Shown here: positions 2,935 through 57,385 of the stretch, one piece after another
Layout of the letters: each line of letters begins with the position of its first letter
Numbering within the stretch: position 1 is the stretch's first letter
From: a virus
Lineage: Duplodnaviria; Caudoviricetes
DNA: 64,000 nucleotides
Strand: one strand, 5' to 3'
Virus record (IMG/VR): IMGVR_UViG_3300020316_000005
Location: 1 to 64,000 of that record
Position numbers and translations under genes: made by a program
Notes under the pieces: model-generated
The model's input: only the letters and a program-made list of their open reading frames with translations
Databases searched by the model: none
What the model was told of the DNA's origin: nothing

Positions 2935-3383
2935 CAGTGCTTGTGCGATGCTTCGAGGATGATCTCAAGATCTTCAACAGCAACGTTCTCGTGAATGTTA
3001 CCTTGCTCATCAATGAGATCGTAATGAGTTACGAAATGGGTGTTACCATCTGCATCAGGTTCTGCCAACTCCACCAAGGTGTGTTGCTCAGGGATGGTTT
3101 GGCAAACGCCATACTCAGCGTGCTCACAGTGTGATGCACAGATATGAGTTTTCTTACCCATTGCTTTAGAGATCGTCTTACGACGATTCAGCAGGTACTT
3201 GTCAGACTTATCGTGGTCACCGTCATTGTCGATGTCCTTGTCTTCTTTACCCACAGGATCCAGACGCTTCTTGGATGCTTCTTTCAGGGTTGCTAATTCT
3301 GCAGCGAGCAGTGTGCGGATGGATTCTTTCATCAGATCTTGCTTTTTAGGGTTGATAATAATCTTAGTTTTCTTGCCCATCAC
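2934..3383 (-). CDS. Hypothetical protein with DxDxDG motif and His/Cys-rich domain
   Basis: [14 protein letters not shown]; HICASHCEH...THYD; coupled to both neighbours. Confidence 0.7.
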
Positions 3384-4909
3384 TTACCAAAGTTAGGGAA
3401 TGCTTTCTTGAAGACTTCGGATGCTTCCTTATGCTTACCTTGGTTAGTAAGTTCTTTGGACTTGGCAAGTGCAGCTGCCTTTGCCTTCTGAGCAGGGGTC
3501 TTCTCTTCGATTTGCATACCGAGACGATCTCTCCAGGAGATGCCTTCGGGATCGCGAAGTGTTGTCTTGTCGTGGTCTGCGGTTTCCTGCATTGCAAGAA
3601 CGCGGCGGACACGATCGGTGCGTGATTCCATAGATTGTTCTCCAAGTTTACGTGCAACTTTGTCGGATCCAGAGGATACTGCACGTGCCGTCTTGCCGAC
3701 GACTTTCTTGATGCCTCTACCCACAGCGCCAACTGCACGGCGGAGGAGAGACTTCTTCTTAGTACCACCTTCCTTAGCACCACCAGTAGAAGTGGGAGCG
3801 GAAGAGGAGGAACTAGATGAACCAGAGGAACTGGAGGAACCACCAGAAGAACTAGAACCAGAAGAAGATGAGGATCCACCTCTAATAGACTTTAGCAAAC
3901 CATCAAGTTTGCCACCAGTCTTATCTCCATCTCCTGATTTTGCTTCAGGTTTCTTTGCTGCGGGTTTCGACTTGCTCAACCCATCACGCTTTGCTTTGAT
4001 TCTCGCTGCTTGGTATGAACCAACAGCGTGACCCGCTGCTTTACCAGCGGCACCAATAGCACTCTTAGCACCAGACTTAACTGCTGCCTTTACTTTAGGT
4101 GCTGCTTTCTTAGCAGCTTCGCCTGCCTTGGCAGCACCAGATTTAACTGCTGCACCTGCCTTAGAGGCACCAGACTTAAGAGCAGAACCAACACGACCTG
4201 CGGCAGATTTCAGACGCTCAACACGCTTGCCTCTTGCAATGCGCTTTGCGCTATCCTTAGATGCCTTAACGGCAGAATCGTAATAGTCCTCAGAGAGAAG
4301 TTCCAGTTCACCAAACATTTCACACGCTTCTTGCAGCAGTGCTTCGTCTTCTAGGTCAACCAGTGCTTCAACAATGATGTCTTCCAGATCTTCGTCAGTG
4401 AGACTGTCGAACTCTTCCTGCAGTTCGTCAACCAGATCCCACATCCATTCTTCAGATTCCTTGACACAGTTAGGAACTTCTTTACCGTCCTTCATCTTAG
4501 TGCCTTTGGCTTTGTAACCATCCCAGCACTTGCCTGCGCCAACGTTCTTACGTGCTTGCTTGAGACCTTCTTCGATCTCATTTTCTTCACAGCAACTCGC
4601 AACAGGTTTACCCTTTGCTTTTACAGAATTCTGAGTTGCAGTGACAGGACCCTCTGTAGATCCCTTTTCTTTTACGGTGTCAATTTTGCCTGACGCATCG
4701 GAAGGCTTTGCCTTAATGGTTGCCATATTCCGATTCTCAAGAATGACATCTGCGATGCCGATGAGACGATCAGACTCAAGGTGCTCCTTGATATAACCGT
4801 GGATAGCATCACCAGAGAAGTTGTGCTGAGCGTAGTCTACGACATATGTTACACGCTGCACATCCTCAGGAGGAAACGCTACCAGTTTACTAGCAAGATT
4901 GATGTCCAT
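3380..4909 (-). CDS. Large modular acidic/basic protein, putative prohead core or internal protein
   Basis: 509 aa; acidic helix block, KCWDGY...VPNCVKE module, Ala/Lys-rich region, poly-Ser linker; late promoter upstream. Confidence 0.75.
3800..3880 (-). repeat. Gly/Ser low-complexity coding repeat
   Basis: [29 protein letters not shown] in the 509 aa ORF. Confidence 0.7.
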
Positions 4910-4936: not shown

Positions 4937-6088
4937 CTATTTAGACTTTCGGAAGTCGCTGAATTTCTTCACCGACTGACCAGGAGTCATTTCCTGTACT
5001 GCTTTTCTGTATGTATCAGTGCCAACTTTCCAATCGTTACCACTGCCATCATCAGCAGAATGATGCTTCTCCTTCTCAGTTACCTCAGCAATGTGCTGCA
5101 ACCAACTCTTAAACACATAACCTTCTGCGGTCTCGTAGATCACATAGTTTGCACCACGGACCGTGACTGTACCACGGACACCTGTGTCCATATGCTCAAC
5201 CAGTTGACCAACCTCAAACACATCTTTCTGGAAGTATGCTTCGCGGAGATCTTGTTGTGCAAGTTTAGGAGCAATCTCCCACATCTCAGCAGCAACCTGT
5301 TCCTCCTCAGAAATACCCATACCCTTACGGACCTCATTCATCAGGCGCTTTGCAATGGCAGCGTTGCCACCAGGAACTCCTTCCGTGAATGACTCAAGAT
5401 CACCTGATGCAGCAAACGCTCGCATCTTAGATGCAGACATACCTTCTACACCTTCAGCATCTGGGTCACGATCGCCAGCAGAAACAACATTGAGTTCTTC
5501 AAACTCATATGCCTGACCATTATATTTCTCAAGGAGAGATTTGAATTCAGAAACGCGATCAGATCCAACAACCAGAGTAACACCAGTGTAACCCTCGTCC
5601 TGAAGTGCCACCATCACATTGAAGATGTTGGACATACCACTGTCATTGACGATTGCATCCGAGTGACTCGGGTACATCTCGTTCATAAACTTAACCTTAA
5701 TTTCAGGTTCCAGCGGATTCTTCTTAGGATCAACCGTACGAGAAGGATAGATGCGATAATTATCAACACCTTCCTTTGCCACAGCATCCAGAAGTTTCTC
5801 GTGCCCAATAGTAGGCGGGTTGAAACGACCGAATGTAATCGCCACAGTTCCTAGACCCTCACCACTTGTGAGATGAGCATCTTCTTGGTCTCCTTGTTCG
5901 ACACCCGCTTGTGCTGCTTGTGCCTCACTTTTATCCACAGCAACTAGGCGCTGACCTTTTTCAGACTTAGCAACAATGTTGCCACTTCTATCAGCATAGT
6001 AACCGTGACCGACGTGTTGAAGTCCACGTTTCGCTGCTGCGTCACCCGCAACAGTCCTTGCTTCAGACAGGAACTCGGTGAATTTCAT
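4937..6088 (-). CDS. HIGH-superfamily nucleotidyltransferase (cyanophage 'cytidyltransferase')
   Basis: TFGRFNPPTIGHEKL (HIGH-like), VVGSDR, MSASKMR (KMSKS-like). Confidence 0.85.
   Translation of the reverse strand: MKFTEFLSEARTVAGDAAAKRGLQHVGHGYYADRSGNIVAKSEKGQRLVAVDKSEAQAAQAGVEQGDQEDAHLTSGEGLGTVAITFGRFNPPTIGHEKLLDAVAKEGVDNYRIYPSRTVDPKKNPLEPEIKVKFMNEMYPSHSDAIVNDSGMSNIFNVMVALQDEGYTGVTLVVGSDRVSEFKSLLEKYNGQAYEFEELNVVSAGDRDPDAEGVEGMSASKMRAFAASGDLESFTEGVPGGNAAIAKRLMNEVRKGMGISEEEQVAAEMWEIAPKLAQQDLREAYFQKDVFEVGQLVEHMDTGVRGTVTVRGANYVIYETAEGYVFKSWLQHIAEVTEKEKHHSADDGSGNDWKVGTDTYRKAVQEMTPGQSVKKFSDFRKSK
4938..4945 (-). promoter_or_regulatory. Late promoter TCTAAATA
   Basis: Overlaps the upstream gene stop, about 29 nt before the 4909 start. 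Confidence 0.6.
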
Positions 6089-6111: not shown

Positions 6112-6119
6112 TATTTATT
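6112..6119 (-). promoter_or_regulatory. Late promoter AATAAATA
   Basis: About 24 nt upstream of the 6088 start. Confidence 0.7.
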
Positions 6120-7375: not shown

Positions 7376-8266
7376 TGACATCTTCAGACTGCTGGCAAGT
7401 TTCTCAGACTCGTACTTGAATCTCATCTTCAGGATCTTCTTTGATCCTGCCTTGACACCAATAGAATCGTTACCAACTTTCTCAAACCCAATCTTTTCAG
7501 TCATAATCGCTTCCAGTTTAGGGTTGTTGAGAGGATCCTCCACTTCAGCAGTGAATGGTGCCTTCCTACCTTTACCAGTTACCTTAACATAGGGAGGGAA
7601 TAGTTCTGTACTAGCATCAATCCAACCCCTCATAATATAATCCTTGCGATCTTTCTGTGCCATTGAGTTCAACTTCGTAAGCATAGCGTCTCTACACTTA
7701 TTCAGAACTTCAGAACCCATCTTATCAGTCTGCATCTGAATCGCTTTCGCTCCTCTGATAGCAGACTTCCTAGCACTAGCAGATGTCGGTAACTTAAAAA
7801 CTTTTACGACTTCATCTGTAGCATCTTTATTAAACTTTGATAGGGCAATACCCAGATCTTTTTCTACAGTACCAACACCAGGGTTCTTGAAACCAATATC
7901 ACCTTTACCAGATGTAGACTTAGCAGAGAGACCTAAGAATCCACCTCTAGTAAACTTAACTAGAACATCAGTTGGATTCTTTTTCTGGTCAACGTCTGTA
8001 CCAGTTACTTGCTTAAAAGAAAACCCAGGACGTGCTGTCCAATAAACATTTTGTACACCACTATATCCATTTTTCCTTGCCCACTTCAAAAATTCTTCTG
8101 CCATTACAGCGGCACGACCAATCTGCTGACTACCTTGATCTGCAGTTAGTAGTGCAAGTTTCTTGGTGTACTGTGCCTCAGACGCAGTATCAGGAAACTT
8201 ATTTTCGTTGAGGGCAAACGCAGTGTAAATCTCATTTACATCTGCTAGGTCTGTATTGGCAGGCAT
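7361..8266 (-). CDS. Putative PD-(D/E)xK-fold endonuclease
   Basis: VNEI helix, NPTDVLV and GLSAK (SxK variant) motifs. Confidence 0.55.
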   Translation of the reverse strand: MPANTDLADVNEIYTAFALNENKFPDTASEAQYTKKLALLTADQGSQQIGRAAVMAEEFLKWARKNGYSGVQNVYWTARPGFSFKQVTGTDVDQKKNPTDVLVKFTRGGFLGLSAKSTSGKGDIGFKNPGVGTVEKDLGIALSKFNKDATDEVVKVFKLPTSASARKSAIRGAKAIQMQTDKMGSEVLNKCRDAMLTKLNSMAQKDRKDYIMRGWIDASTELFPPYVKVTGKGRKAPFTAEVEDPLNNPKLEAIMTEKIGFEKVGNDSIGVKAGSKKILKMRFKYESEKLASSLKMSGDPW

Positions 8267-8288
8267 AAGACCAAAAACTTTTACCTAC

Positions 8289-8296
8289 TATTTAGA
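8289..8296 (-). promoter_or_regulatory. Late promoter TCTAAATA
   Basis: About 23 nt upstream of the 8266 start. Confidence 0.6.
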
Positions 8297-8837
8297 AGGT
8301 ACCTGGTCGCTTGTACAGATTCATAGCAAAGCATCGTCTGTGTGCTTGTGTTGGTGGAACTTCGTGAATCAGTCTAGCATCAAAGATTAGCAACTGACGT
8401 GCTGTCACATAATAAGGACTGTTCCCATCAAATAATATAGGAGAAGCACCCTCTTCTACTCTAAGGTAACCAACTGCTGCCCAGTCTGCAGGGAAGTGGC
8501 AGTGAGGTTTTACATAATCACCTGGTCCATAGTCTGCACCCCAGGTATTTTTCACATCATATTCAACATCAGTGGTTCCATCATTCAACCCACCATACAG
8601 TCTACCTCCAGCATTGTAGATGAGATTTGAAATCATCTTACAACAAAGACTGGCATATGCCTCACACAAAGGTAAAGGCAATGTCCAGTCAGTTTGTCTT
8701 GCGACAACGTTTGACCCCTGAGGAGATTCTTTTCCAGACTCCATCCAGTTATCAATCGTATGGTTTGCTTCCTCAATACATTCATCGGGAAGAATAAATT
8801 CAAAGACGGGTGTACCCCGTCCAACATAAGATGTCAT
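8292..8837 (-). CDS. 2OG-Fe(II) oxygenase-like protein (TIGR02466 type)
   Basis: W...PHCH...GYL...IHEV...RRCFAMN. Confidence 0.75.
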   Translation of the reverse strand: MTSYVGRGTPVFEFILPDECIEEANHTIDNWMESGKESPQGSNVVARQTDWTLPLPLCEAYASLCCKMISNLIYNAGGRLYGGLNDGTTDVEYDVKNTWGADYGPGDYVKPHCHFPADWAAVGYLRVEEGASPILFDGNSPYYVTARQLLIFDARLIHEVPPTQAHRRCFAMNLYKRPGTF

Positions 8838-9034
8838 TCGTCTTCTGCTTCTGCTGCCTCTTCAAGAGTATCTAGCATAATGTCGATGTCCTGAAGATTG
8901 TCAATACCGACGATGAGTTCAGAGATCTTGTGTCCCACGTATGGACGTTCTTGGCGAGCAGCGAATGCGAGTGCGTTTCTTAGTGATAGTTCTGCCTCTT
9001 TCAATGAGTTGGTCACGCTTTCGGACAGTGCCAT
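8834..9034 (-). CDS. Small conserved hypothetical protein
   Basis: 66 aa, coupled to neighbours; LRNALAFAARQERP motif. Confidence 0.65.
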   Translation of the reverse strand: MALSESVTNSLKEAELSLRNALAFAARQERPYVGHKISELIVGIDNLQDIDIMLDTLEEAAEAEDE

Positions 9035-9036
9035 AA

Positions 9037-9564
9037 TTAAATCCAGTCTGGTTTACGATCAGGTTTACGAAGATAGTTTGTTTTTACCCAGGGTTTTGAT
9101 GCAATGTATTGTTTGTATGCATCATAGGTTGAGATGGTTTTGTCAAACTTGTACACATCGGGCATTGCCCTTGCGAACTCTTCCGCCATACTATAGCACA
9201 CGATTGCTTTTCCAGTACGTCTATGGAAAACTTTTTTTGCGTGGAATAGAGTGGAAGCACAGGAGTGTTGCTTACCATAACGATGTTCATACTCACTACT
9301 GAGACAGCATCCGTGTTGGATCAACCAGGCAGTGTTGTAGATATTTTTACCTGCCCATTTAGTACAAGGGTGGTTACGGAACGCACCTTTTGCAGTTGCG
9401 TAGTAACCACCGTCTTTTTTTGGTAATGGTTCCCAGTCGTAATACCATCCAGAATAGATGATTGCAAGCATTTGACAGCATTCCAATGGCATCTTGACCA
9501 CGTGTTTGTCAGGTAGAACTTGAGCAGAGATACGTGGGTCTGGATGGGTTACGAAAATGTTCAT
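9037..9564 (-). CDS. denV: Pyrimidine-dimer DNA glycosylase (DenV-like)
   Basis: MNIF...DKHVVKMPLECCQML, NHPCTKW, FARAMPD signature. Confidence 0.75.
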   Translation of the reverse strand: MNIFVTHPDPRISAQVLPDKHVVKMPLECCQMLAIIYSGWYYDWEPLPKKDGGYYATAKGAFRNHPCTKWAGKNIYNTAWLIQHGCCLSSEYEHRYGKQHSCASTLFHAKKVFHRRTGKAIVCYSMAEEFARAMPDVYKFDKTISTYDAYKQYIASKPWVKTNYLRKPDRKPDWI

Positions 9565-10076
9565 TAGATGTCGCCTTCGGCACGGTTTTCAGAGCGTTCA
9601 ACAGTGAACTCTCCTTCAGGATAGCGCGTTGCAAGTTTAACGGTGTTACGATAGATGACTTCTTCCATACGAACACCAAGTGCCATACACGCTTGTGCAG
9701 CATACCACATCACATCACCCAGTTCAACGATGAGGTGTTCCTTGTTAGCATTGTCATAGGGTTTGCCTTGGAACTTGAGTTTCTTGACGATCTCCATAAA
9801 CTCACCTGCCTCAGCAACGAGACCAGACGCAGCAGTATCAAGTCGCTGAATCTTACAACCAGATCGTTGCAGTTCTGCATAACGAGTCAGAAGAACATCA
9901 AAATCTTTAGACTCTTCACTACAAGTCATATCACAGAACTTGAGGTACTCGTCAAGGTCAACCTCAAACTTACCCTTTGCTTTGGCATCAATCTTTTCCT
10001 TTACTGCTTTACCCTTAGGAGTAGAAGGTCCGTCACCGAAACCTGCGGGAGTAGGATCAACTTTTGCTTTTGCCAT
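9564..10076 (-). CDS. mazG: MazG-family nucleotide pyrophosphohydrolase
   Basis: GLVAEAGEFMEIVKK...ELGDVMWY...N.VKL..RYP. Confidence 0.9.
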   Translation of the reverse strand: MAKAKVDPTPAGFGDGPSTPKGKAVKEKIDAKAKGKFEVDLDEYLKFCDMTCSEESKDFDVLLTRYAELQRSGCKIQRLDTAASGLVAEAGEFMEIVKKLKFQGKPYDNANKEHLIVELGDVMWYAAQACMALGVRMEEVIYRNTVKLATRYPEGEFTVERSENRAEGDI

Positions 10077-10078
10077 AA

Positions 10079-11455
10079 TTAGATTTTGAAACCGTCGAAT
10101 GAAGTGTTTGAAATTTGCAGAATGTCAGTAGTTTCTACTGACTTGTCTTGACCAGAGTCGATGATATTTTCTTGCTCATTGCAATCATACAATCTCATCT
10201 TTGCTCTGTCAATACCCACGACGAATCTCTTGTTCATCGTTGGGTCGTTATATCTATTCTTCAACTGCTTGACCATAATCTGATTCTGTGCCTCAAGATC
10301 TTCTGTAGAGATCAAAGCAAACATAAAATCAGCAGTTGCAGGAAGACCGAATGATTCGGATGTATCTGTCAGGTCTACATCTGAGTTTCCATAACCGCTC
10401 CTAGTAGTTTGCGTAGCAGACACGATAGGAACATTATGCTCACCAGCAAGACCACGTAGTTCTTCAGCAATGGCTTTCACAAACGTGTATGAGTTAACAA
10501 TAGCACCCTTGTATCGATTTGAACTACAAATGTTGAGATAATCAACATAGATGATGTCAGGAACGAAAGACTTTTTGATAGCAAGTTCCTGAAGAAGTGC
10601 TTTGAAGTGACCAACGTGTGCTGATGCAGTTGGATATTCCTTGATGATCAACCGACCTTGTGTCTTCTTAGTAACCCTTTCGATCTTAGAGTCGAACATA
10701 GGTTTAGGAAGTGTCTCAAGTTGTTGAACACTAACGTTCAGAAGGTTGGCATCAATACGCTCAGCAATTTTCTCCTCTGCCATCTCCATTGTGATGTAGA
10801 GAACATTGAGTCCTGCTGTGAGATTAGCAGCAGCACAGTGACACATAAACAATGACTTACCAACACCTGTGCCAGCAAGTGCAATGTTGAGTGTCTTCTT
10901 AGAGATGCCTCCTTTGGTAACCTTGTTCATCATCTCAAGGTCAAAGGGAATCTTCTCTTCGATACGATGATAGAAAGCAAAACGATCATCAGCGTCTTCA
11001 AGGTAATCGTGACCAACTGAGTTATCAAAACTCACACTGAGTGCCTTGGATAGGATACTAGGGATAGCATCTCTACCAAACTCTTTGTGATCTCCCTCAG
11101 CAATCTGAATAGATTCCAGGAGTGCATTATAGATGGCACGATCACGACACCACTTCTCTGTGGTATCACACAACCAGTTCTCTTCGTGCGGTTCTTCAAC
11201 TAGACCATCGATGAAGGTGCTGATCTCTTTGAAAGAAGATTCATTGAGATCTGTGCGTCCTTCAAGTTCAATCCTCAACGCATCCATTGTAGGAAGCGTA
11301 TCATAATTAGTCAGGTATGAAGAGATCTCTTCAAACAGAACTTTGTTGTTATAGTTCTCAAAGTAATCCGCTGAAATATGTGGGATAACTTTGCGAGTAT
11401 AGTCCTGATTGAAAACCAGTGAATTGACTACCAGTTCTTCAATCGAATTAGACAT
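10079..11455 (-). CDS. g41: Replicative DNA helicase gp41
   Basis: AGTGVGKS, ITMEMAEE, IKEYPT, VDYLN, SESFGLPATAD. Confidence 0.97.
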   Translation of the reverse strand: MSNSIEELVVNSLVFNQDYTRKVIPHISADYFENYNNKVLFEEISSYLTNYDTLPTMDALRIELEGRTDLNESSFKEISTFIDGLVEEPHEENWLCDTTEKWCRDRAIYNALLESIQIAEGDHKEFGRDAIPSILSKALSVSFDNSVGHDYLEDADDRFAFYHRIEEKIPFDLEMMNKVTKGGISKKTLNIALAGTGVGKSLFMCHCAAANLTAGLNVLYITMEMAEEKIAERIDANLLNVSVQQLETLPKPMFDSKIERVTKKTQGRLIIKEYPTASAHVGHFKALLQELAIKKSFVPDIIYVDYLNICSSNRYKGAIVNSYTFVKAIAEELRGLAGEHNVPIVSATQTTRSGYGNSDVDLTDTSESFGLPATADFMFALISTEDLEAQNQIMVKQLKNRYNDPTMNKRFVVGIDRAKMRLYDCNEQENIIDSGQDKSVETTDILQISNTSFDGFKI

Positions 11456-12026
11456 AGTGGCAATAAGTTCCTGCGATGTATTTGTCGTTAGAGACAGTTG
11501 GGTTCCCAGAATGTGGGAAGGTCCACATTGGTGGGAAGATTAGTAGTCTACCACACTTAGGTTTGATTGCAATGTTACCGAAGTCAGTTTCTCCACCTTC
11601 TTCAACATCGTTTAGATACCAGAAGAGTGTGAGGAACCTACGGGCAGACTCGTAGTCACCCACATCAACGTGACGATCAAATCTATCGTCAGTGCCAGCA
11701 CGATACTTCTTGATACGGAACTGTTCAATAGTGCTTCTTGCTGGGAAGAACTGTCTACAGTCAACATCATCCATATACTTCTGTACATAATTATGTGCAG
11801 ACTCGATGAATGCATTGTGGATCAGACCCCAATCTTCTAGTGCTGTAAGATCTTCAGATCCTTCTAGTTTTTGGGTAAGGTTAAACTGTTGAAACTGTGG
11901 ACGACCATTACGATCCCAATCCTCAATATCTTCATCATCCAGTTTTTCAAATAGTCTGATCGCATTTTTACATACAGTATCTGGAATAGAATAGTCGTAA
12001 TACCTGATTAGATCATCAAGTTCCAT
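11448..12026 (-). CDS. Prolyl-4-hydroxylase-like 2OG-Fe(II) oxygenase
   Basis: RHVD...[13 protein letters not shown]...FPP.WTFPH...KY; start trimmed to MELDD. Confidence 0.85.
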
Positions 12027-13032
12027 AACCAAACTCCTTTTGTGCACACTCGTCTAGTGCTTGCATCACTTCTGGCGTGAAATACTTCTCAGGATTGGCA
12101 AGAATAACAGAAGGAAAAACGGAAGATTCCCCAACAACAACCCGATTTCCCTTACGCTCGAAGACTCCGTACTTCTCACCCAGTTCCAGTAAGCCGTAGT
12201 ATTTGTCAAGACCTCGCTCGTCATAAAAAAGACGTGTTTCAACTTTACTATTCTCCTGTGTGAATCGTGACTTCTTCGCTTCGCATTTAATAATGTTACC
12301 TACGATTTCTTTTTTAGAGTCACGCTCCTTACTTTTGGTAAGGAAGATGATGGTGGATGCAGCATACTTAAGTCCACTGCCACCACCCATTTCTTTTGTA
12401 GGAACATACGCACCAACTACATCATATGTATGGTTAGTGACGATTAACGGAACGTTACAACGTCCGAGTTCCAAAGTCAAAACACGGAAGATTGCTTTCA
12501 CAACTTGAGCACGAGTCATATCACGTGTCTCTTTACCTTCAGCAGAATCCTGAACCTCTTTGGTAGTAGAAAGCATACCCAAAGAGTCAAGCACAAACAT
12601 CATAGGTTTGCGATCTGCTTCCTTCTGTTCCTTATACTTCTTGAGCACGTTGAGTGCTTGTGTACGAAACTCCTGTACGGTTGTGACAGGAACAATAATC
12701 ATACGATTAGAATCGATACCACGATCCTCAATCATTGCCTTAGAAATGGCGGACTCAGATTCAAAATAAATGACTCCAGCATCAGGATCAGTATCGAGGA
12801 AGTGACGAACGACACTAAGAGTAAAAAAAGTTTTTCCAGTGCTGCTCTCTCCTGCAAGAGCGGTGATCTTGTTTGAAGGAAGACCTCCATAAATCGAACC
12901 ACTAACCAGGGCATTGAAAATATAAGAACCAGTGTCAATGAAGTTAGAAACATCACCTGCAGCAATGCCATCACTAACAATAGAGGCATACTCATTGCCA
13001 ATATCTTTCACAACGTCGTTGAGGAAACTCAT
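12016..13032 (-). CDS. uvsX: RecA-like recombinase UvsX
   Basis: [24 protein letters not shown]; start trimmed to MSFLND. Confidence 0.96.
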
Positions 13033-21582: not shown

Positions 21583-22435
21583 CAAGAAGTTCTTCAATAG
21601 GGGAAAGGTTCTTATAGTTTGTGACCATCAACTCTTTACGTTTTGATTGGTCAACGTTGTATGAACCTGTAGATCTCATAGTATAGGTAAAGTCCCACTC
21701 AGTCAAGTTGTATGACTCAAACAATGCACGAGTATTTTCGTTTGAGTTGTATGTGATCAACCAGTTATGCGGGGACTTCTTGCAGGTTTCTGCAAACATA
21801 TGGTGGTCAAATCCTTTGTGCATAGTGCCTCCCTTTCCACCGTAGAGGAAATCTTTAATATCGTATGGAGGATCCAAGAAACAAAATGTCGATTCTCCGT
21901 TTCCATAATCGTCTAAGAGTAATCGTGAGTAGTCAACATTAGTGATGTGCCAGTGCTGAATCATCTCAGAGAACTGAGGAAGTTTCTTAATAGAGCGAAC
22001 ACTAAAGTTGGAGTTGGATGCTTGACCAGAGAAAGAAGAGTTCTCAGTTAGACCTGAGAAGGAGCACTTGTTCAGTACATAAAAATACACTGCCTGTTGA
22101 AACTCATCTCTATCTGCAATCACATCCTTGGCAAGAAGGAATACTTCCTTTGCTCTTTCTACAGTATTTGATTCACTCTTGATTGCAAGCAGTGCTTCAC
22201 ACAAGTCTTCACCACGTTCTTGGAGTTGCACCCAAAAATTATATAGGTAATAGTATTTGTCATTTACCCATACAGGCGTCTCTGGGTTCTGTTTTGTAAA
22301 CTCGATTGCAACACTTCCACCACCCAAGAATGGTTCACGGAACTCTTCGATGCCAGTAGGAAACTTACCCACTAACATCTTTGCTGCACGGGACTTACCG
22401 CCAGGGTATCTAAGGGGTGTTTTCAGGTTCTTCAT
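21554..22435 (-). CDS. dam: DNA adenine methyltransferase (D12 / Dam class)
   Basis: RYPGGKS, EPFLGGGSV, DPPY. Confidence 0.9.
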   Translation of the reverse strand: MKNLKTPLRYPGGKSRAAKMLVGKFPTGIEEFREPFLGGGSVAIEFTKQNPETPVWVNDKYYYLYNFWVQLQERGEDLCEALLAIKSESNTVERAKEVFLLAKDVIADRDEFQQAVYFYVLNKCSFSGLTENSSFSGQASNSNFSVRSIKKLPQFSEMIQHWHITNVDYSRLLLDDYGNGESTFCFLDPPYDIKDFLYGGKGGTMHKGFDHHMFAETCKKSPHNWLITYNSNENTRALFESYNLTEWDFTYTMRSTGSYNVDQSKRKELMVTNYKNLSPIEELLDEQTAVPPR

Positions 22436-38893: not shown

Positions 38894-40240
38894 TCACATA
38901 AGGTTGTCAACCAGAACACGTCTGTAGTAACGGTTAGCGTTAGCGGTGAGTGCACCACTACCCTGGGAGGTACCTTCTGCGAAGGGGTTAGCAACGAGAC
39001 CGTATCTGGTCTTGAAGCCGATCTTCGGCTGGAAGGTGTCCTGACCAACGGCGCGAACCATCTGCAGAGGCACGTAAGGGCAGTAGAAGAGACCTGCGTC
39101 ATATGCACTGCTACCTTTGTAACCTGCCACATAGAAGTGACGGTCAGAAACGTTAGCAGAGTAAGGATCGACGTAGACCTTAATACGACCGTTAAGAGTA
39201 CCTGCGAGGGTGCTGCTGTTGTCGTCGGGGAGCAGGTTGCTGTTACCAGCAAGTGCGGGGGTGTAGTCAAGAACACCAGCCATAGACAGAGCAGATGCCA
39301 CATCAGCGGAGCAGATGAGGATGTTGCCCTTTCCACGACGAGTCTCGTGACCGATTGCGTTCATATCTCTCTCAATCTGGAAGAGGAGACCCTTGAACTT
39401 CTCAACAGACCAGCGACCGTTGGAGTCAACGTCGAGGTCGAAGATACCTGCAGTTGCAGTGTTGTTCTGAGCGCCAGGACGAGCGATCTTGTAGACAGTT
39501 CTAACAACTTCTCTGTTGATCTCAGCGAGAACTTCAGTAGAAAGGATGTTAGCGAGTTCGCTCTCAGCATCCAGACCGTGAACTGCTTTCAGGTCTTGAG
39601 CAAGTTCCAAGCTGTACTCAGCTTTCAGTGCTCTGGACTTAGCAGTCACAGTGACCTTCTCGATGGAGAAGTTCATTTCTGCGAACTGGTTACCTGCAGC
39701 ATCACCCAGTGCTTCTGCCTCGGCGGTAGGCATACCGTCGGAGGTGTTGTAGGTGCCGCTGTCGTTCAGCAGACCAGGGTTGCTACCTGCCTGAGCAGTT
39801 CTACCCAGATCAGATGCTGCGTTCTCTGCGGAGAACTCGGTGTCTGCCTCGTTGAAGAATGCTTCAGTACCAGCAGTACGGTTGGTGCCATAACGGGAGC
39901 GCATTGCGAAGATCAGACCAGTAGGTCCAGTCATCGGTTGCACACCTGCGATGTCATAAGCAATCAGCTTAGGCATCGAACGGCGAATGAGGCTAATCAG
40001 AACGGGGTCGAAACCAGCAACAGGACCAGTTGCAGTGGAAGAACCACTGAAACCAGCAGTGCCAGCAGACATTGTAGGTGCTGCTTCAGTCAGCACGCCA
40101 CGCTCTTCAGCCAGGAACTTTTCTTGGTTTTCAAGCAGGACTGCGGTTACCGCTTTCTTATAGCTATCCTTGATGGAATCAAGACCTTCGCAATTAAGAA
40201 CGGGGGACCACTTTTCCTGCAGATGCTCGGATTTGAACAT
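38894..40240 (-). CDS. g23: Major capsid protein gp23
   Basis: LLENQ, GVQPMTGPTGLIFAMR, EINRE, FYCPYVP, KTRYG; VLTE-A cleavage site. Confidence 0.99.
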   Translation of the reverse strand: MFKSEHLQEKWSPVLNCEGLDSIKDSYKKAVTAVLLENQEKFLAEERGVLTEAAPTMSAGTAGFSGSSTATGPVAGFDPVLISLIRRSMPKLIAYDIAGVQPMTGPTGLIFAMRSRYGTNRTAGTEAFFNEADTEFSAENAASDLGRTAQAGSNPGLLNDSGTYNTSDGMPTAEAEALGDAAGNQFAEMNFSIEKVTVTAKSRALKAEYSLELAQDLKAVHGLDAESELANILSTEVLAEINREVVRTVYKIARPGAQNNTATAGIFDLDVDSNGRWSVEKFKGLLFQIERDMNAIGHETRRGKGNILICSADVASALSMAGVLDYTPALAGNSNLLPDDNSSTLAGTLNGRIKVYVDPYSANVSDRHFYVAGYKGSSAYDAGLFYCPYVPLQMVRAVGQDTFQPKIGFKTRYGLVANPFAEGTSQGSGALTANANRYYRRVLVDNLM

Positions 40241-40294
40241 TTGCTTTTTACCTCTTTAGGTTATAGTTTTGGAAAAATTGGTTTAATGACTAAT

Positions 40295-41287
40295 TCACTT
40301 AGTCCAGCGACGGAGCGCATCGACGTAACGTGACATCGATTCCGTCATATCGCTATCCACAACAGGTTGGACATCTTCAGCAATCGTCTCTGCTGCCGCT
40401 TGGGGCTTGCTAGAGAAATACGACTCTTTCAGAGTCTCGATTTTGCTGCGGAATGACTCTTCATCTTCAAACTCAACACCCTCTGCCAGACCAGCAAGCT
40501 TTTCCCTTTCGGTAGCTGCCAGACCCTCAGAGATCTCACTCACAATCCCATTCTTCACGAATGCACCAACCTCACGGGTCAGAGCAACGTTCTTATCGAT
40601 TTGCTCGTTGAGTTTTGCTTCCATCGAATCTAGTTCTGTCACCATCTCAGAGATGATGTCAGTTTTTTCTTCGGGAACCTCAATATGGTTCTCGACGAAT
40701 ACTTTTTTGAGACCAGCAACAACGCTCTCAGCAATCTCGGACTTCAGTCCAGTTTCGATTGCGATCTCGTTCTTGCCCATCCACTCTTGCACAGCATAAG
40801 TCAGATACTCATCGACTTGCTCTGCGAGAGAAGCTTTGACTGACTCAACCTGCTCACTGAGTGCTGTTGCATACTCACCGTGAACACGATCGAGTTCCTC
40901 GTTGAGGCGGGAAACAACTGCAGCTTCAAAGATTGTTGCTGCTTTTGCCTTGAACTCCTCACTCAGGTCCTCGCCCTCAGTCAGTGCTGCCACGTCTGCG
41001 CTCAGATCGATTTCGATCAGTTCATCACCTTCAGCATTCTCTGCTTCCACAGATTCGTGCTTCTTGGGCGATGCGTCAGAGGGCTTGGTCTTGGGCGCGG
41101 ATGCCTGGGTCTGAGAAGGAGTCTTCAGTTTGTTAGACTCATCATCAGGTTTGTTGTTTGTAGGGGTAGGACCGCCCAGGTCCTCAACCGATCCCAGCGA
41201 AGAACCATCAGCAACGGCACCGTCGAACTTAGCTTCGGTGACTTCTTGTTGTTCTTCGGAAACCATCACTTCTTTTTCTTGCGACAT
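40295..41287 (-). CDS. g22: Prohead core scaffold gp22
   Basis: LSEEFK.KAATIFEAAV, VDEYL.Y, LKESYF. Confidence 0.95.
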   Translation of the reverse strand: MSQEKEVMVSEEQQEVTEAKFDGAVADGSSLGSVEDLGGPTPTNNKPDDESNKLKTPSQTQASAPKTKPSDASPKKHESVEAENAEGDELIEIDLSADVAALTEGEDLSEEFKAKAATIFEAAVVSRLNEELDRVHGEYATALSEQVESVKASLAEQVDEYLTYAVQEWMGKNEIAIETGLKSEIAESVVAGLKKVFVENHIEVPEEKTDIISEMVTELDSMEAKLNEQIDKNVALTREVGAFVKNGIVSEISEGLAATEREKLAGLAEGVEFEDEESFRSKIETLKESYFSSKPQAAAETIAEDVQPVVDSDMTESMSRYVDALRRWTK

Positions 41288-41324
41288 TGGTTGTCTCCTT
41301 AGTAGTCTTTGCTATTCTTAGAAA

Positions 41325-41332
41325 TATTTATC
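41325..41332 (-). promoter_or_regulatory. Late promoter GATAAATA for g22
   Basis: Intergenic. Confidence 0.7.
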
Positions 41333-41334
41333 GT

Positions 41335-41985
41335 TTACAGAGTTTTAAGGAACTGAGAAAACGCGGAAAGTTTGCGCTCTTCCAGAACTGCTCTGTTAGG
41401 AGCATTGTCAATACTCCTTTTAATCGTTGCAACTTCGGACTCTCTAATGATTCCGTTGTTCCAGACCCACTCTTTACCTTCCATAATTCCGTTCACAAAT
41501 GCGTCAGGAGCAGAAGGATCAGCAACAATATCTGCTGCTGTAGCGAGCATAAAGTCGTCGGCAACGATCTTTACACCTTCACTGGAGGTTTGCAGTGAAC
41601 CAATGCCACGAGAAGAAACGCCAAGTTTGACGCCTTCATCGAGAAGATTCTTTGCGATGTTACCCATAGGTGTATCAAGGATGCGTGCACGTCCCTTGAA
41701 GTTATTTCCTTCCTGAACCAGGGAGGTGATAACGTGGGAGACACGATCCAAGTTGACGGTAGGACCGTCGGGATGACCCAGTTCACCAAGAGCGCGACCC
41801 GTCTTAATGAATGATTCATTATATTTAGCGACTTCGCGAGCAAGTGTACTGATGGGATACATCCGACCATTGCGGTTTTTGATCTCACCTTGAAGGAAAG
41901 TACCTTCAATGTACAGACGCTTCTTACCGTTCTTTTCTTCGGTTAGAAGTTCAATGTCTTCAATCGTTTCCGTGATCAGTTTCAT
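41335..41985 (-). CDS. g21: Prohead protease gp21
   Basis: MKLITE, GELGHP, GVSSRG.GS, DIVADPSAPDA. Confidence 0.97.
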   Translation of the reverse strand: MKLITETIEDIELLTEEKNGKKRLYIEGTFLQGEIKNRNGRMYPISTLAREVAKYNESFIKTGRALGELGHPDGPTVNLDRVSHVITSLVQEGNNFKGRARILDTPMGNIAKNLLDEGVKLGVSSRGIGSLQTSSEGVKIVADDFMLATAADIVADPSAPDAFVNGIMEGKEWVWNNGIIRESEVATIKRSIDNAPNRAVLEERKLSAFSQFLKTL

Positions 41986-55368: not shown

Positions 55369-55806
55369 TTAGCACTTCCACTTTCTAAGTGCGAGTGCTT
55401 TACGTGTTGGTTTCCCATTTTCGTCCTTCATTGGACCTTTCATACCACCCATACGGGCACAGAAAGATCTCTTACGAGGACCACCTTCGGGTTGAGGTGC
55501 CTTCAAATCTGAACCAGGGTTCTCTCTTTCATAGGACTTACGTCCTTTCTCATTCAGACCACCAGAAGGATTCTTTCCTTCTTTGCGCTGCCAAGCACTT
55601 TCCTTGACATCAGCAGCTGCTTTTCCAGAATACTTTCTCTTTGAATTACGTTTCGCTGTATCGTCAATCTCTTTCATTTTAAGAGCGTGACTCATTTTTC
55701 TACGAATAGACGGTCTACCAATAGGAGGATTAGTCCTATCAATAACACGTGCAACCTTTAGGGCTACACCCTCGTCAAATTCGTGGAACTCAGCGAAAGT
55801 CTTCAT
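55369..55806 (-). CDS. Basic protein with capsid-targeting-like N-terminus and DUF6321-like module
   Basis: MKTFAEFHEFDE-G; VKE-SAWQRKEGKNPSGGLN...SFCARM...LRKWKC. Confidence 0.75.
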   Translation of the reverse strand: MKTFAEFHEFDEGVALKVARVIDRTNPPIGRPSIRRKMSHALKMKEIDDTAKRNSKRKYSGKAAADVKESAWQRKEGKNPSGGLNEKGRKSYERENPGSDLKAPQPEGGPRKRSFCARMGGMKGPMKDENGKPTRKALALRKWKC

Positions 55807-55946
55807 TGTTCTTGATTATGTTTTGGGTTAGAGGGGCAGTTCTCTTCGTGCTTCTCAATCCAAGTTTTAGGACGCCAATGTCCTTTGGGAGAAGTCAGAC
55901 CGCAATACTGACACACATAAGTGCCATCTTCACGTCGTTCAGCCAT
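55803..55946 (-). CDS. Small C2HC zinc-finger protein
   Basis: YVCQYC...HEENC; start trimmed to MAERRE. Confidence 0.6.
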   Translation of the reverse strand: MAERREDGTYVCQYCGLTSPKGHWRPKTWIEKHEENCPSNPKHNQEQ

Positions 55947-56625
55947 AGTGAAATTTCCTGTCTTTGGTTTTCTTAGGTAGTTTAGCAGATCGTACCTTCG
56001 TGGATGACGTTTCGCCATACCCTTCAGGATGTTTTCCGCCTTTTGCCTTACCGATGGAATCAGACTTAGCCTTACTTCCTTTCTCGGTATAATGTAGTTT
56101 AGCATCTTTTCCAGGCTTTTTGGTAATCACGGATTCTTGACCGTGCTTCCTACCCAGACGACGCATCACTTTACCAAAGCGGCGTCTCGACATCTTATCA
56201 GGTTTGGACGTGTGATATGAAACCTCACGACCAGTTTTACCGTCGGCATACTTGTATTCACCGACGCCTTTCTTGTGTCCGATACCGTGCTTCTTGAGAT
56301 CTTTCTCAAGACTCTTACGCTTTTCACGGTTCTTCTTCTCGTCAGAACCACGGTCAGCAGAAATGTGTCCAGTATCTTTTTTCTTTGCTTTGTCCATTGC
56401 ACGTGCGAGACCACCCTCAGCAATGAAGGTTCCGAACGGCATCAAGTAGGACTGAGTTTGCATCATCATATCCGTGCTACCTCCTCTTTGGACAGTCTTT
56501 CTTTGTAGTTGTAATCTTCTCAAGTTGAGCATCAGTTGCCTACGATCAAGCATCTGCTTTTGCTTCTTAACTTGATTACCAGCACCACCTTTTTGTTGCT
56601 GTTGTTCTGGTTGATTTTCCATCAC
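55939..56625 (-). CDS. SAM lyase (T3 SAMase)-like domain behind a capsid-targeting-like propeptide
   Basis: ISADR...N...GEY...EVS...GQESVI...AKLHY pattern; MPFGTFIAE-G. Confidence 0.6.
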   Translation of the reverse strand: MMENQPEQQQQKGGAGNQVKKQKQMLDRRQLMLNLRRLQLQRKTVQRGGSTDMMMQTQSYLMPFGTFIAEGGLARAMDKAKKKDTGHISADRGSDEKKNREKRKSLEKDLKKHGIGHKKGVGEYKYADGKTGREVSYHTSKPDKMSRRRFGKVMRRLGRKHGQESVITKKPGKDAKLHYTEKGSKAKSDSIGKAKGGKHPEGYGETSSTKVRSAKLPKKTKDRKFHYG

Positions 56626-56903
56626 TGACGAGCAACTTTAGTACACTTGAGACCATTACCATCGATAGTTTCGAGTGCATCTTTCTCAAGATACATAACA
56701 CCGCCTGCTTCGATGCTGACAGTACGCGAACCCAGTGCAACATACTTGGTGCCATCACCACGGGCGCTAACAACAGCAGCGTCATCAATCGTCAAAACAA
56801 TGGTTGCTCCAGTGTCATTCACAACACGTACAGCAGTTGCTTTGCTCAAGTTAGTTGCACTACTGAGAGTCACCTCAGCAGCCATTACTCTTACTCTATC
56901 CAT
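56622..56903 (-). CDS. Small beta-rich late protein (possible virion component)
   Basis: 93 aa, directly below a late promoter. Confidence 0.65.
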   Translation of the reverse strand: MDRVRVMAAEVTLSSATNLSKATAVRVVNDTGATIVLTIDDAAVVSARGDGTKYVALGSRTVSIEAGGVMYLEKDALETIDGNGLKCTKVARQ

Positions 56904-56926: not shown

Positions 56927-57385
56927 CTATTTATCATTTTGTTTCTGTTGTTTCAGAAACTTGGCAAGTTCTGCTGTGCTACCAACGAACATAGTGTTGT
57001 TAGTGACATTTTGTGCTGCCTTACCTTGTGGACCTTCTTCCAGTTCCTGCATCTTTTTCTGCAGGTCGATAAGTTTGTCCGTAGTGTCAGCAATATTTTT
57101 AATCATATTGCCAGCGACTTCATATGCTCTAGGAGAATCGGACTCTTGTGCTAACTCAAGAATACCGTCAACTGCCTCTTGACCCTTTTCGATTAAAGAG
57201 TATAAGTTCCCACGAGTATATTCATAGTCTTTGGAAACTTGTTCTGATGTTGCAGCAGGAACTATCTCAGCAGTTTTTTTCTCTGCTGGTACGATTTGGG
57301 TTTCAACATCAAGAGCATCTTCAATACCCTCATACTTTTGAAACTTATTCGTCGTTTCCTGTGACTGGGTTTCTTGAGAGTCCAT
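56927..57385 (-). CDS. g16: Terminase small subunit gp16
   Basis: DYEYTRGNL...PRAYEV...FVGSTAEL; start trimmed. Confidence 0.92.
   Translation of the reverse strand: MDSQETQSQETTNKFQKYEGIEDALDVETQIVPAEKKTAEIVPAATSEQVSKDYEYTRGNLYSLIEKGQEAVDGILELAQESDSPRAYEVAGNMIKNIADTTDKLIDLQKKMQELEEGPQGKAAQNVTNNTMFVGSTAELAKFLKQQKQNDK
56928..56935 (-). promoter_or_regulatory. Late promoter GATAAATA
   Basis: Overlaps the g16 stop, about 25 nt before 56903. Confidence 0.7.

What the first reader, a model, noticed from the sequence alone, without database searches (positions are those of the whole stretch)
55939..56625. T3 SAMase-like domain behind a FIAE capsid-targeting/cleavage site: candidate virion-delivered anti-restriction enzyme
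Seen: a Gln-rich leader, then MPFGTFIAE/GG (Met62, codon at 56442, a possible internal start), then GHISADR...N.EKR...GEYKY...REVS...HGQESVI...AKLHY. Established (recalled, not searched): T3 SAM lyase reads VLVSAFR...N.SR...GCYRE...EEKT...WEQDCVL...AGLVY and defeats SAM-dependent defences such as type I restriction and BREX; the T4 IPIII leader ends FIAE. Inference: unlike the early T3 gene, this copy is late, packaged, matured by gp21 and injected with the genome, so it could deplete SAM before any phage transcription. The propeptide or packaging could spare the phage's own Dam and second methyltransferase. The high Lys content leaves open that it is a catalytically altered nucleic-acid binder.
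Basis: partly seen in the sequence, partly recalled or inferred. Interest (0 to 1): 0.85.

Follow-up and report, generated by a model that had tools for sequence, protein, structure and literature searches.

The report
Head-targeted SAM lyase of a cyanophage
A T4-like marine cyanophage encodes a T3-type enzyme that destroys the methyl donor SAM, placed behind a copy of the short leader that phage T4 uses to load proteins into its head, so it is probably carried in the virion and injected with the DNA; packaging is not shown for this protein.

Summary
ORF 55939..56622 (-) encodes a 227-aa, very basic protein. Residues 77-227 are a T3-type SAM lyase: Pfam PF23780 above cut-off, VIA-align Z 13.7 to T3 SAM lyase, and hhalign E 1.8e-6. 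The only three invariant columns across 41 diverse relatives are the G, E and Q that contact SAM in characterised SAM lyases.

Just upstream, residues 60-69 (LMPFGTFIAE|GG) reproduce the key positions of the T4 capsid targeting sequence MKTYQEFIAE. In many homologues this motif is the true N-terminus.

The packaging idea is supported indirectly. A homologue, S-CREM2 gp6, was found in virions by mass spectrometry (2023 paper), and its authors already proposed injection. The four S-CREM2 ORFs that carry the motif at their N-terminus are all virion-detected, non-structural proteins. The window encodes a gp21-type prohead protease, and the operon has a late-promoter-like ATAAATA.

Packaging, cleavage, injection, activity and an anti-restriction role remain untested for this protein.

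This scan reached the same reading on at least eight other cyanophage genomes. Particular to this locus are a helical Gln-rich leader subfamily and a tightly coupled four-gene operon that ends in a DUF6321 protein with a similar leader.

The parts
56928..56934 (-). Late-promoter-like ATAAATA inside the gp16 stop region, 25 nt upstream of the first gene of the operon
   Evidence: All 7 ATAAATA matches in the window are on the coding (-) strand; four, including those ahead of gp20, gp22 and the cytidylyltransferase, were checked to lie just upstream of ORF starts. The count alone is not above chance.
56622..56903 (-). orf93, first gene of the operon; its stop overlaps the SAM-lyase start (TGATG); function unknown
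   Evidence: phrog_19805, unknown function. No similarity to the P-SSM4 structural protein T4-GC403 at the same position.
55939..56622 (-). SAM-lyase precursor CDS: 227 aa, pI 10.4, 26% Lys+Arg
56446..56622 (-). Leader, residues 1-59: Gln-rich start, then a predicted helix (15-45) with the conserved LDRRQLMLNLR.LQLQRK
   Evidence: AF2 model. The leader is conserved in 19 of 120 near-homologue clusters. An AGGAGGT lies 10 nt upstream of Met52, so a shorter product cannot be excluded.
56416..56445 (-). T4 CTS-like motif LMPFGTFIAE (residues 60-69), with the predicted gp21-type cleavage after E69, before G70-G71
   Evidence: It is one of only two [LIVMF]xE sites in the protein; the other, VGE at 119-121, is inside the active-site strand. 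pLDDT is below 50 here.
55942..56415 (-). Predicted mature protein, residues 70-227: T3-type SAM-lyase fold (77-227), net charge +29, pI 10.3
56254..56262 (-). G121-E122-Y123, aligned to T3 G55 and Y57; by residue type and order these correspond to Svi3-3 G56 and Y58 (ribose packing, cation-pi with the sulfonium)
56218..56226 (-). E133-V134-S135; E133 aligns to T3 E68 and corresponds to Svi3-3 E69, the residue whose mutation nearly abolishes activity
56131..56139 (-). Q162-E163-S164, aligned to T3 Q93-D94; corresponds to Svi3-3 Q104-E105-S106 (binds the homoserine end of SAM)
55803..55946 (-). 47-aa Cys-rich zinc-ribbon-like ORF; its ATG overlaps the SAM-lyase stop (ATGGCTGA)
   Evidence: only weak zinc-ribbon Pfam hits.
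55369..55806 (-). DUF6321 protein (145 aa, pI 10.3) starting MKTFAEFHEFDE|G, last gene of the coupled operon (ATGA overlap)
   Evidence: (PF19846, E 1e-25). DUF6321 is fused to the SAM-lyase module in other phages and sits directly behind an exact T4-type CTS in 10 viral-contig ORFs.
41335..41985 (-). gp21-type prohead protease, the presumed processing enzyme
   Evidence: PF03420, E 1e-35. gp22 scaffold is at 40295..41287 and gp23 at 38894..40240, the latter with VLTE|A at residue 52.
4937..6088 (-). Cytidylyltransferase (T4-GC190-like family) starting MKFTEFLSE|A: a second protein of this phage with the leader
   Evidence: The family was detected in S-SM1 virions and S-CREM2 virions.

Best explanation
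The gene encodes the precursor of a capsid-internal SAM lyase. SHOWN: residues 77-227 have the T3-type SAM-lyase fold, and the SAM-contacting residues G121, Y123, E133, Q162 and E163 are kept. SHOWN: directly upstream is a motif that keeps the functionally mapped positions of the T4 capsid targeting sequence (aromatic at position 4, Phe at 7, Ile at 8, Glu at 10). SHOWN: the phage has T4-type head-maturation genes (gp20, gp21, gp22, gp23). INFERRED: the protein is made late from the ATAAATA upstream of orf93. It is then co-assembled into the scaffolding core of the prohead through the leader and motif, and cut by the gp21 protease after E69. The very basic mature enzyme (pI 10.3) stays with the packaged DNA and is ejected into the next host together with the genome. 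There it would refold, probably as an oligomer with active sites at subunit interfaces as in known SAM lyases. It would split SAM into methylthioadenosine and homoserine lactone before any phage gene is expressed. INFERRED consequence: SAM-dependent host defences (type I and III restriction, BREX-like systems) are starved at the moment the unprotected DNA enters. Keeping the enzyme as a precursor or sequestered in proheads would limit damage to the phage's own Dam methylase late in infection. Back-of-envelope, from my own assumptions: a cell of 0.1 fL at 100 uM SAM holds about 6,000 molecules, so tens of enzyme copies at the roughly 10 per second measured for Svi3-3 would clear it within a minute.
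For: Enzyme domain: Pfam PF23780 30.4 bits, cut-off 28. Foldseek top hits are all SAM lyases. VIA-align gives T3 SAM lyase 8bb1_E Z 13.7, rmsd 2.8 A, 129 residues, model 77-227 against chain 5-152, with the next unrelated fold at Z 7.2. hhalign of 41 diverse relatives against T3 gp0.3 gives E 1.8e-6 and pairs G121/G55, Y123/Y57, E133/E68 and Q162-E163/Q93-D94. The only three invariant columns of that alignment are this G, E and Q, the same three residue types that Guo et al. report as strictly conserved and SAM-binding.

Targeting motif: the T4 CTS sequence and its mapped positions are confirmed from papers. The motif is the true N-terminus in P-SSM2 gp114 and in many homologues. It precedes the module in 43 of 96 family representatives: 28 at the N-terminus, 15 internal.

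Packaging: S-CREM2 gp6 (BLASTP 9e-14 to this protein, PF23780 70 bits) was detected in CsCl-purified virions with 19 unique peptides. A six-frame scan of S-CREM2 finds the motif at only four ORF N-termini: gp6, gp12, gp14 and gp154. All four are virion-detected, non-structural proteins; the hypergeometric P is 0.003 against 52 virion proteins of 221. The S-CRM01 kinase, reported as virion-detected, starts MISFDQFLSE. Cytidylyltransferase homologues almost all start MK.FS.FL.EA.

Sequence census: an exact T4-type CTS pattern in viral contigs heads 127 ORFs in 41 unrelated cargo clusters. These include T4 IPIII as a positive control, SAM lyase and DUF6321.

Context: gp21 protease, gp22 and gp23 in the window, a late-promoter-like motif, and a mature part of pI 10.3 like the basic T4 internal proteins.
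Against: Nothing shows packaging, cleavage or injection of this protein. The phages with earlier virion proteomes (S-SM1, Syn9, S-PM2) lack the gene. The S-CREM2 authors themselves warn that abundant non-structural proteins might co-purify with virions. In this protein the motif is internal, behind a conserved 59-residue leader, whereas the tested T4 CTS is N-terminal. The Pfam score of this particular protein is only 2.4 bits above the cut-off. No SAM-lyase activity has been measured for any member of this cyanophage clade. The phage encodes a SAM-dependent Dam methylase, which a late-made active SAM lyase would starve. The defence targeted in marine picocyanobacteria is not identified.
Confidence: 0.6

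Rival explanations
1. It is an ordinary cytoplasmic SAM lyase made during infection and not packaged. On this view the FIAE-type motif is only a conserved N-terminal structural element or linker of this SAM-lyase clade.
For: The motif travels with the module in about half of the family representatives, as a domain-intrinsic element would. Packaging is unshown for this protein. The S-CREM2 authors admit possible co-purification.
Against: The same motif heads unrelated proteins: kinase, cytidylyltransferase, S-CREM2 gp12, DUF6321, GNAT-like proteins, peptidoglycan hydrolases and true T4 IPIII. It lies about 18 residues outside the Pfam domain and is disordered in the model. Removing the N-terminal 19 residues of Svi3-3 did not reduce activity.
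Confidence: 0.15
2. It is a packaged but catalytically silent, DNA-associated internal protein derived from a SAM lyase. It would serve charge neutralisation or DNA condensation in the head, like the basic T4 internal proteins.
For: Extreme basicity: 30% Lys+Arg, net +29, pI 10.3 in the mature part. The usual architecture in relatives is the C-terminus of 400-900-residue, highly charged, low-complexity proteins.
Against: Across 41 relatives with 17% mean column identity, the only invariant residues are exactly the three SAM-contacting ones. This is hard to explain without ligand binding. Y123, E163 and S164 are kept too.
Confidence: 0.1
3. It is an injected enzyme that acts mainly on something other than free SAM. 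One option is binding and inactivating the host SAM synthetase, as T3 SAM lyase does. Another is degrading a SAM-derived signal such as SAM-AMP from type III CRISPR systems.
For: The best structural matches are T3 SAM lyase chains solved in complex with SAM synthetase (8bb1, 7ock). The whole of 77-227 aligns to full-length T3 SAM lyase, including the part beyond the Pfam core. A SAM-AMP lyase (9gad) is among the weaker fold matches at Z 5.6.
Against: No test of binding to SAM synthetase was made. The SAM-AMP lyase match is no better than unrelated ferredoxin-like folds. From my own knowledge, marine picocyanobacteria mostly lack CRISPR systems.
Confidence: 0.1

Closest known systems
Bacteriophage T3 gp0.3 SAM lyase (SAMase; PDB 7OCK, 8BB1)
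   Same: Same fold over the whole mature region (Z 13.7). Same G, Y, E and Q-acidic residues. A phage enzyme that removes SAM to defeat SAM-dependent defences.
   Different: T3 makes it as the first early gene from host promoters, and it is not known to be a virion component. The cyanophage protein sits in the late structural region behind a T4-type targeting motif. It is very basic and only 13-16% identical.
Svi3-3 SAM lyase (PDB 6ZM9, 6ZNB; Guo et al. 2021, PMC7877911)
   Same: Ferredoxin-like core. The three strictly conserved residue types (G56, E69, Q104) have counterparts here, and Q-E-S is literally identical.
   Different: Weaker structural match (Z 7.6-8.2). No C-terminal extension, no targeting motif, and trimer state shown only for Svi3-3.
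Synechococcus phage S-CREM2 gp6, 'SAM hydrolase (virion protein)' (PMC10665884)
   Same: Homologous module (38% identity over 140 residues, E 9e-14). T4-like cyanophage. Starts with the same kind of leader (MKDFDSFLEE). The authors proposed entry with the DNA to protect against restriction.
   Different: gp6 is 414 aa, with the module at the N-terminus and a long C-terminal tail. It lies in another genome region next to a Dam methylase. The paper's section on virion-associated proteins gives no loading mechanism, and a full-text search for 'capsid targeting sequence' with 'cyanophage' did not return it. Here the module follows a 59-residue helical leader in the gp16-gp17 gap.
T4 internal proteins IPI, IPII, IPIII and Alt (CTS cargo cleaved by gp21)
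   Same: A roughly 10-residue leader with the same key positions. Basic cargo. Prohead protease present. Precedent for injected anti-restriction (IPI) and host-modifying (Alt) cargo.; the roles of IPI and Alt are from my own knowledge.
   Different: No sequence or fold relation of the cargo. The T4 CTS is strictly N-terminal, whereas here it is internal. No SAM lyase is known among T4 internal proteins.

Membership tests
SAM lyase (Pfam PF23780; T3 gp0.3, Svi3-3) | Profile match above the curated cut-off | tested here: met
   30.4 bits against a cut-off of 28, E 4.2e-7, residues 88-195. This is marginal for this protein. It is strong for its homologues: S-CREM2 gp6 at 70 bits and L026 at 65 bits. 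Most of the 316 relatives carry precomputed PF23780.
SAM lyase (Pfam PF23780; T3 gp0.3, Svi3-3) | Ferredoxin-like beta-alpha-beta-beta-alpha-beta core superposable on solved SAM lyases | tested here: met
   AF2 model, pLDDT 74-93 over most of 71-190. Foldseek ranks 1-7 are SAM lyases. VIA-align Z 13.7 and 13.1 to T3 SAM lyase and 8.2 to Svi3-3.
SAM lyase (Pfam PF23780; T3 gp0.3, Svi3-3) | The three strictly conserved SAM-binding residues (Gly, Glu, Gln), plus the Tyr and the acidic residue after Gln | tested here: met
   G121, E133 and Q162 are the only invariant columns in 41 diverse relatives. They align to T3 G55, E68 and Q93; Y123 aligns to Y57 and E163 to D94. The definition is from PMC7877911.
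SAM lyase (Pfam PF23780; T3 gp0.3, Svi3-3) | Oligomer with active sites at subunit interfaces | tested here: inconclusive
   One homotrimer job with SAM gave no verdict.
SAM lyase (Pfam PF23780; T3 gp0.3, Svi3-3) | Cleaves SAM to methylthioadenosine and homoserine lactone | not testable with these tools
   Needs an enzyme assay.
T4-type capsid-targeted internal protein (CTS cargo) | Leader with an aromatic at position 4, Phe at 7 (targeting), Ile/Leu at 8 and Glu at 10 (processing) | tested here: met
   L60-M-P-F63-G-T-F66-I67-A-E69 against M-K-T-Y-Q-E-F-I-A-E. Positions are from PMC9026906 and PMC8442874.
T4-type capsid-targeted internal protein (CTS cargo) | The leader is the N-terminus of the precursor | tested here: not met
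   With the ATG at 56622 the motif is residues 60-69. The preceding leader is conserved as protein. The feature is met in the P-SSM2 orthologue and in many homologues. An internal start at M52 or M61 is not excluded.
T4-type capsid-targeted internal protein (CTS cargo) | gp21-type prohead protease and scaffold present in the same phage | tested here: met
   PF03420 E 1e-35 at 41335..41985; gp22 and gp23 adjacent.
T4-type capsid-targeted internal protein (CTS cargo) | Present in the mature virion and cleaved after the leader's Glu | not testable with these tools
   There is only a virion detection of the homologue S-CREM2 gp6. No N-terminal peptide data are available.
T4-type capsid-targeted internal protein (CTS cargo) | Late expression | tested here: inconclusive
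   ATAAATA lies 25 nt upstream of the operon, which sits among late structural genes. There are no expression data.

The most novel reading that the evidence does not exclude
T4-like cyanophages and other marine T4-like phages use the T4 capsid targeting sequence as a portable address label. With it they pre-load the head with a varied set of injected enzymes: SAM lyase, an ADP-ribosyltransferase-fold protein, GNAT-like acetyltransferase, protein kinase, NMNAT-like cytidylyltransferase, DUF6321 proteins and long multi-module polyproteins. The SAM lyase would be the member that disarms SAM-dependent defences at the instant of DNA entry. The cargo of any such phage could then be read from sequence.
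Probability: 0.5. Interest if true: 0.75.

Novelty: new variant of a known kind. Interest (0 to 1): 0.62.

Why it matters
Known SAM lyases act only after the phage's first genes are expressed. An enzyme delivered with the DNA would act before any transcription, closing the window in which restriction or BREX-type systems see unprotected DNA.

The gene family (T4-GC110 of Sullivan et al. 2010) is annotated 'hypothetical' in P-SSM2, P-SSM4, S-SSM5, P-SSM7, S-SZBM1 and others. It occurs in more than a thousand environmental protein clusters.

The motif gives a sequence rule for predicting which cyanophage proteins are head cargo. It would also explain why enzymes such as kinases and cytidylyltransferases keep turning up in cyanophage virion proteomes.

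It is testable with existing isolates and with the T4 packaging system.

Tried and rejected
- Megablast of the locus against phage records: no match.
- phmmer of the protein and hmmsearch of the close-family profile against PDB sequences: only chance hits.
- hhalign of the close-family alignment A1 (Neff 1.7) against T3 SAM lyase failed. It worked only after adding distant relatives (A2).
- The homotrimer prediction with SAM gave no verdict, score 0.00. It counts neither for nor against.
- The genome search with PF23780 on the phage's own contig did not ring, although hmmscan finds the domain. The tool's controls did not ring either, so this is uninformative.
- orf93 is not related to the abundant S-SM1 and P-SSM4 structural protein T4-GC403 that occupies the same position.
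- The Sullivan 2010 virion proteomics cannot speak to this gene. T4-GC110 is not in the proteome table held for that paper, and no S-SM1, Syn9 or S-PM2 record appears among the tblastn hits.
- The primary S-CRM01 proteomics paper is not in the library. Its virion kinase is cited only through PMC10665884.
- Met62 as the main start was considered and judged unnecessary, because the leader is conserved as protein.

Full report
**What the window is.** The window is part of a 109,882-bp IMG/VR viral contig, estimated 62% complete. It comes from a T4-like cyanomyovirus. On the minus strand it carries gp13-gp16, gp17, gp18, gp19, gp20, the gp21 prohead protease, the gp22 scaffold and gp23. It also carries petE, zwf and gnd.

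**The ORF and its operon.**
- The finding is the ORF at 55939..56625 (-). Its likely start is the ATG at 56622, which overlaps the stop of the upstream 93-codon ORF (TGATG). That gives 227 residues.
- The ORF is the second of four translationally coupled genes: orf93, this gene, a 47-residue zinc-ribbon-like ORF, and a DUF6321 protein. Each start overlaps the preceding stop.
- An ATAAATA, the core of the T4-type late promoter, lies 25 nt upstream of orf93 inside the end of gp16.
- All seven ATAAATA in the window are on the coding strand. Four of them, including those ahead of gp20, gp22 and the cytidylyltransferase gene, lie just upstream of ORF starts. The raw count is not above chance.

**The enzyme domain.**
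- Pfam's S-AdoMet_lyase family (PF23780) matches residues 88-195 at 30.4 bits, cut-off 28.
- Of 316 similar-length relatives, most carry the same precomputed Pfam family.
- The AlphaFold model built on 55 relatives is confident over most of residues 71-190. It has a beta-alpha-beta-beta-alpha-beta core followed by extra strands.
- Foldseek ranks 1-7 against the PDB are all SAM lyases.
- VIA-align gives Z 13.7 (rmsd 2.8 A, 129 residues) to T3 SAM lyase, with model residues 77-227 covering chain residues 5-152. It gives Z 8.2 to Svi3-3. The best unrelated fold scores 7.2.
- A sequence-only comparison with T3 failed while the profile held only close relatives. A whole-library profile search then supplied 255 clusters. 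With those, a 41-sequence alignment of 17% mean column identity aligned to T3 gp0.3 at E 1.8e-6.
- That alignment has exactly three invariant columns: G121, E133 and Q162. hhalign pairs them with T3 G55, E68 and Q93. It also pairs Y123 with Y57 and E163 with D94.
- Guo et al. report that only Gly56, Glu69 and Gln104 are strictly conserved among active SAM lyases, and that all three bind SAM. E69Q nearly abolishes activity, and T3 E68Q loses complementation.
- I therefore regard the domain as a genuine, probably active SAM lyase of the T3 type.

**The motif.**
- PMC8442874 gives the T4 capsid targeting sequence as MKTYQEFIAE.
- PMC9026906 reports that positions 4 and 7 matter for targeting and positions 8 and 10 for processing by gp21.
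- Residues 60-69 here read L-M-P-F-G-T-F-I-A-E, followed by G-G. They keep an aromatic at 4, Phe at 7, Ile at 8 and Glu at 10.
- This is one of only two [LIVMF]xE sites in the protein. The other lies inside the active-site strand.
- The segment is disordered in the model and lies outside the Pfam domain.
- In homologues the motif is often the true N-terminus: MKTFKQFIAEG..., MKSFKQFIAEG..., and P-SSM2 gp114 MRTFQEFLQLCE|GG.
- In 729 longer proteins (400-900 residues) the SAM-lyase module is C-terminal in nearly all of the 120 listed. In most of those it is directly preceded by [ST][FY]x[EQ]F[IL]xE|GN.
- Among 96 family representatives at 50% identity, 28 have the strict motif at the N-terminus and 15 just upstream of the module.

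**Is the motif a loading signal or just part of the domain?** Three lines of evidence favour a signal.

1. S-CREM2 virion proteome.
   - The paper on Synechococcus phage S-CREM2 reports a virion proteome of 52 proteins. It includes a 'SAM hydrolase' (gp6, 19 unique peptides), a kinase (gp14), a so-called Cas9-like nuclease (gp12) and a cytidylyltransferase (gp154).
   - gp6 is a homologue of the window protein (E 9e-14) and a strong PF23780 member (70 bits).
   - I scanned the whole S-CREM2 genome in six frames for [FY]xxF[ILMV]xE. Only four matches lie at ORF N-termini, and they are exactly gp6, gp12, gp14 and gp154.
   - The chance that four proteins all fall among 52 of 221 is 0.003.

2. 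Other virion-detected proteins.
   - The S-CRM01 kinase is cited as virion-detected and starts MISFDQFLSE.
   - The cyanophage cytidylyltransferase was found in S-SM1 virions by Sullivan et al.. In nearly all of 120 homologue clusters it starts MK.FS.FL.EA or MKFSQFITEA.
   - The window's own copy starts MKFTEFLSE.

3. Census of viral contigs.
   - The 127 matches are almost all real ORF starts. They head 41 unrelated cargo clusters.
   - The clusters include T4 IPIII (phrog_5341, a positive control), SAM lyase, DUF6321, a GNAT-like protein, a glucosaminidase and a DPBB lytic transglycosylase.
   - The motif is therefore a portable module, as Black and colleagues suggested for T4-like phages in general.

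**What is particular to this locus.**
- The motif is internal, behind a 59-residue leader with a Gln-rich start and a predicted helix (LDRRQLMLNLR.LQLQRK).
- This leader defines a subfamily: 19 of 120 near-homologue clusters, and none of the long forms. It is conserved as protein, so the precursor is probably translated from the first ATG.
- A strong AGGAGGT lies 10 nt upstream of Met52. A shorter product with a 17-residue (Met52-Glu69) propeptide therefore cannot be excluded. T3 gene 0.3 is also annotated with an in-frame internal start.
- The mature part is extremely basic: pI 10.3, net +29. This resembles the T4 internal proteins.
- The last gene of the operon encodes a DUF6321 protein that starts MKTFAEFHEFDE|G. 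In other phages DUF6321 is fused to the C-terminus of the SAM-lyase module, and in ten viral-contig ORFs it follows an exact CTS directly. The two are probably co-delivered.

**What is not shown.**
- No experiment shows packaging, cleavage, injection or activity for this protein or for any orthologue in its clade.
- The S-CREM2 authors note that abundant proteins might co-purify with virions.
- The phage encodes a Dam methylase, which needs SAM. The notion that the leader or sequestration protects it is speculation.
- The defence system targeted in marine picocyanobacteria is unknown.
- The homotrimer prediction gave no verdict.

**Novelty.**
- SAM lyases, the T4 CTS and a virion-associated SAM hydrolase in a T4-like cyanophage are all published.
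- The 2023 paper already proposed entry with the DNA to protect against restriction.
- What I did not find in the library is the link between them: a T4-type CTS explains how the enzyme and the other 'non-structural' virion proteins get into the head.
- Nor did I find recognition that the widespread cyanophage gene cluster T4-GC110, annotated as hypothetical, belongs to this family.
- This scan has reached the same reading on at least eight other cyanophage genomes. My tests were made independently on this window and agree with them.

Noticed in passing
window 55369-55806 (-): DUF6321 protein (PF19846, E 1e-25, pI 10.3) starts MKTFAEFHEFDE|G and ends the SAM-lyase operon. In other phages DUF6321 is fused behind the SAM-lyase module, and in 10 viral-contig ORFs it sits directly behind an exact T4-type CTS. 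It is probably a second head cargo; its function is unknown.
   Followed up: partly
window 4937-6088 (-): The cytidylyltransferase (T4-GC190-like family; HIGH-type nucleotidyltransferase) starts MKFTEFLSE|A and has an ATAAATA at 6112-6118. Nearly all 120 homologue clusters start MK.FS.FL.EA or MKFSQFITEA. The family has been found in S-SM1 and S-CREM2 virions.
   Followed up: partly
viral contig loci L011-L130, e.g. L068:187-639:-: The largest cluster of exact-CTS-headed ORFs in viral contigs has 19 members of about 150-220 aa, with invariant H21, T23, G35 and Y42. It has no Pfam or PHROG match. Its model's best PDB matches, at E 4e-3 or weaker, are Tpt1/KptA, and most of the rest are PARP or diphtheria-toxin-type ADP-ribosyltransferase folds. 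It may be an injected ADP-ribosyltransferase analogous to T4 Alt.
   Followed up: partly
L003 (S-CREM2) 7704-10313 (-) and 10579-12846 (-): S-CREM2 gp12 ('Cas9-like', no Pfam match) carries ..KPLRFASFMAE|A at residues 17-26. The kinase gp14 starts (V)KRFDAFLTE|E. Both were detected in virions.
   Followed up: yes
window 55803-55946 (-): A 47-residue Cys-rich zinc-ribbon-like ORF is translationally coupled between the SAM-lyase and DUF6321 genes (ATGGCTGA and ATGA overlaps).
   Followed up: no
window 3380-4909 (-) and upstream to position 1: There are highly charged multi-module late proteins. I did not check that myself.
   Followed up: no
window 38894-41985 (-): Candidate gp21-type sites in the phage's own head proteins: gp23 VLTE|A at residue 52 (preceded by KFLAE|E at 45), gp22 EVTE|A at 18, and gp21 LITE|T at 6.
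   Followed up: partly
window 21677-22408 (-): Dam-type DNA adenine methylase (PF02086, E 1.5e-34): a SAM-dependent enzyme in a phage that also encodes a SAM lyase. S-CREM2 has its Dam two genes from its SAM hydrolase.
   Followed up: partly
window 56470-56490 (-): A strong Shine-Dalgarno-like AGGAGGT lies 10 nt upstream of the Met52-Met53-Met54 codons inside the leader. This could be a possible internal start, giving a T4-like 17-residue (Met52-Glu69) propeptide.
   Followed up: no
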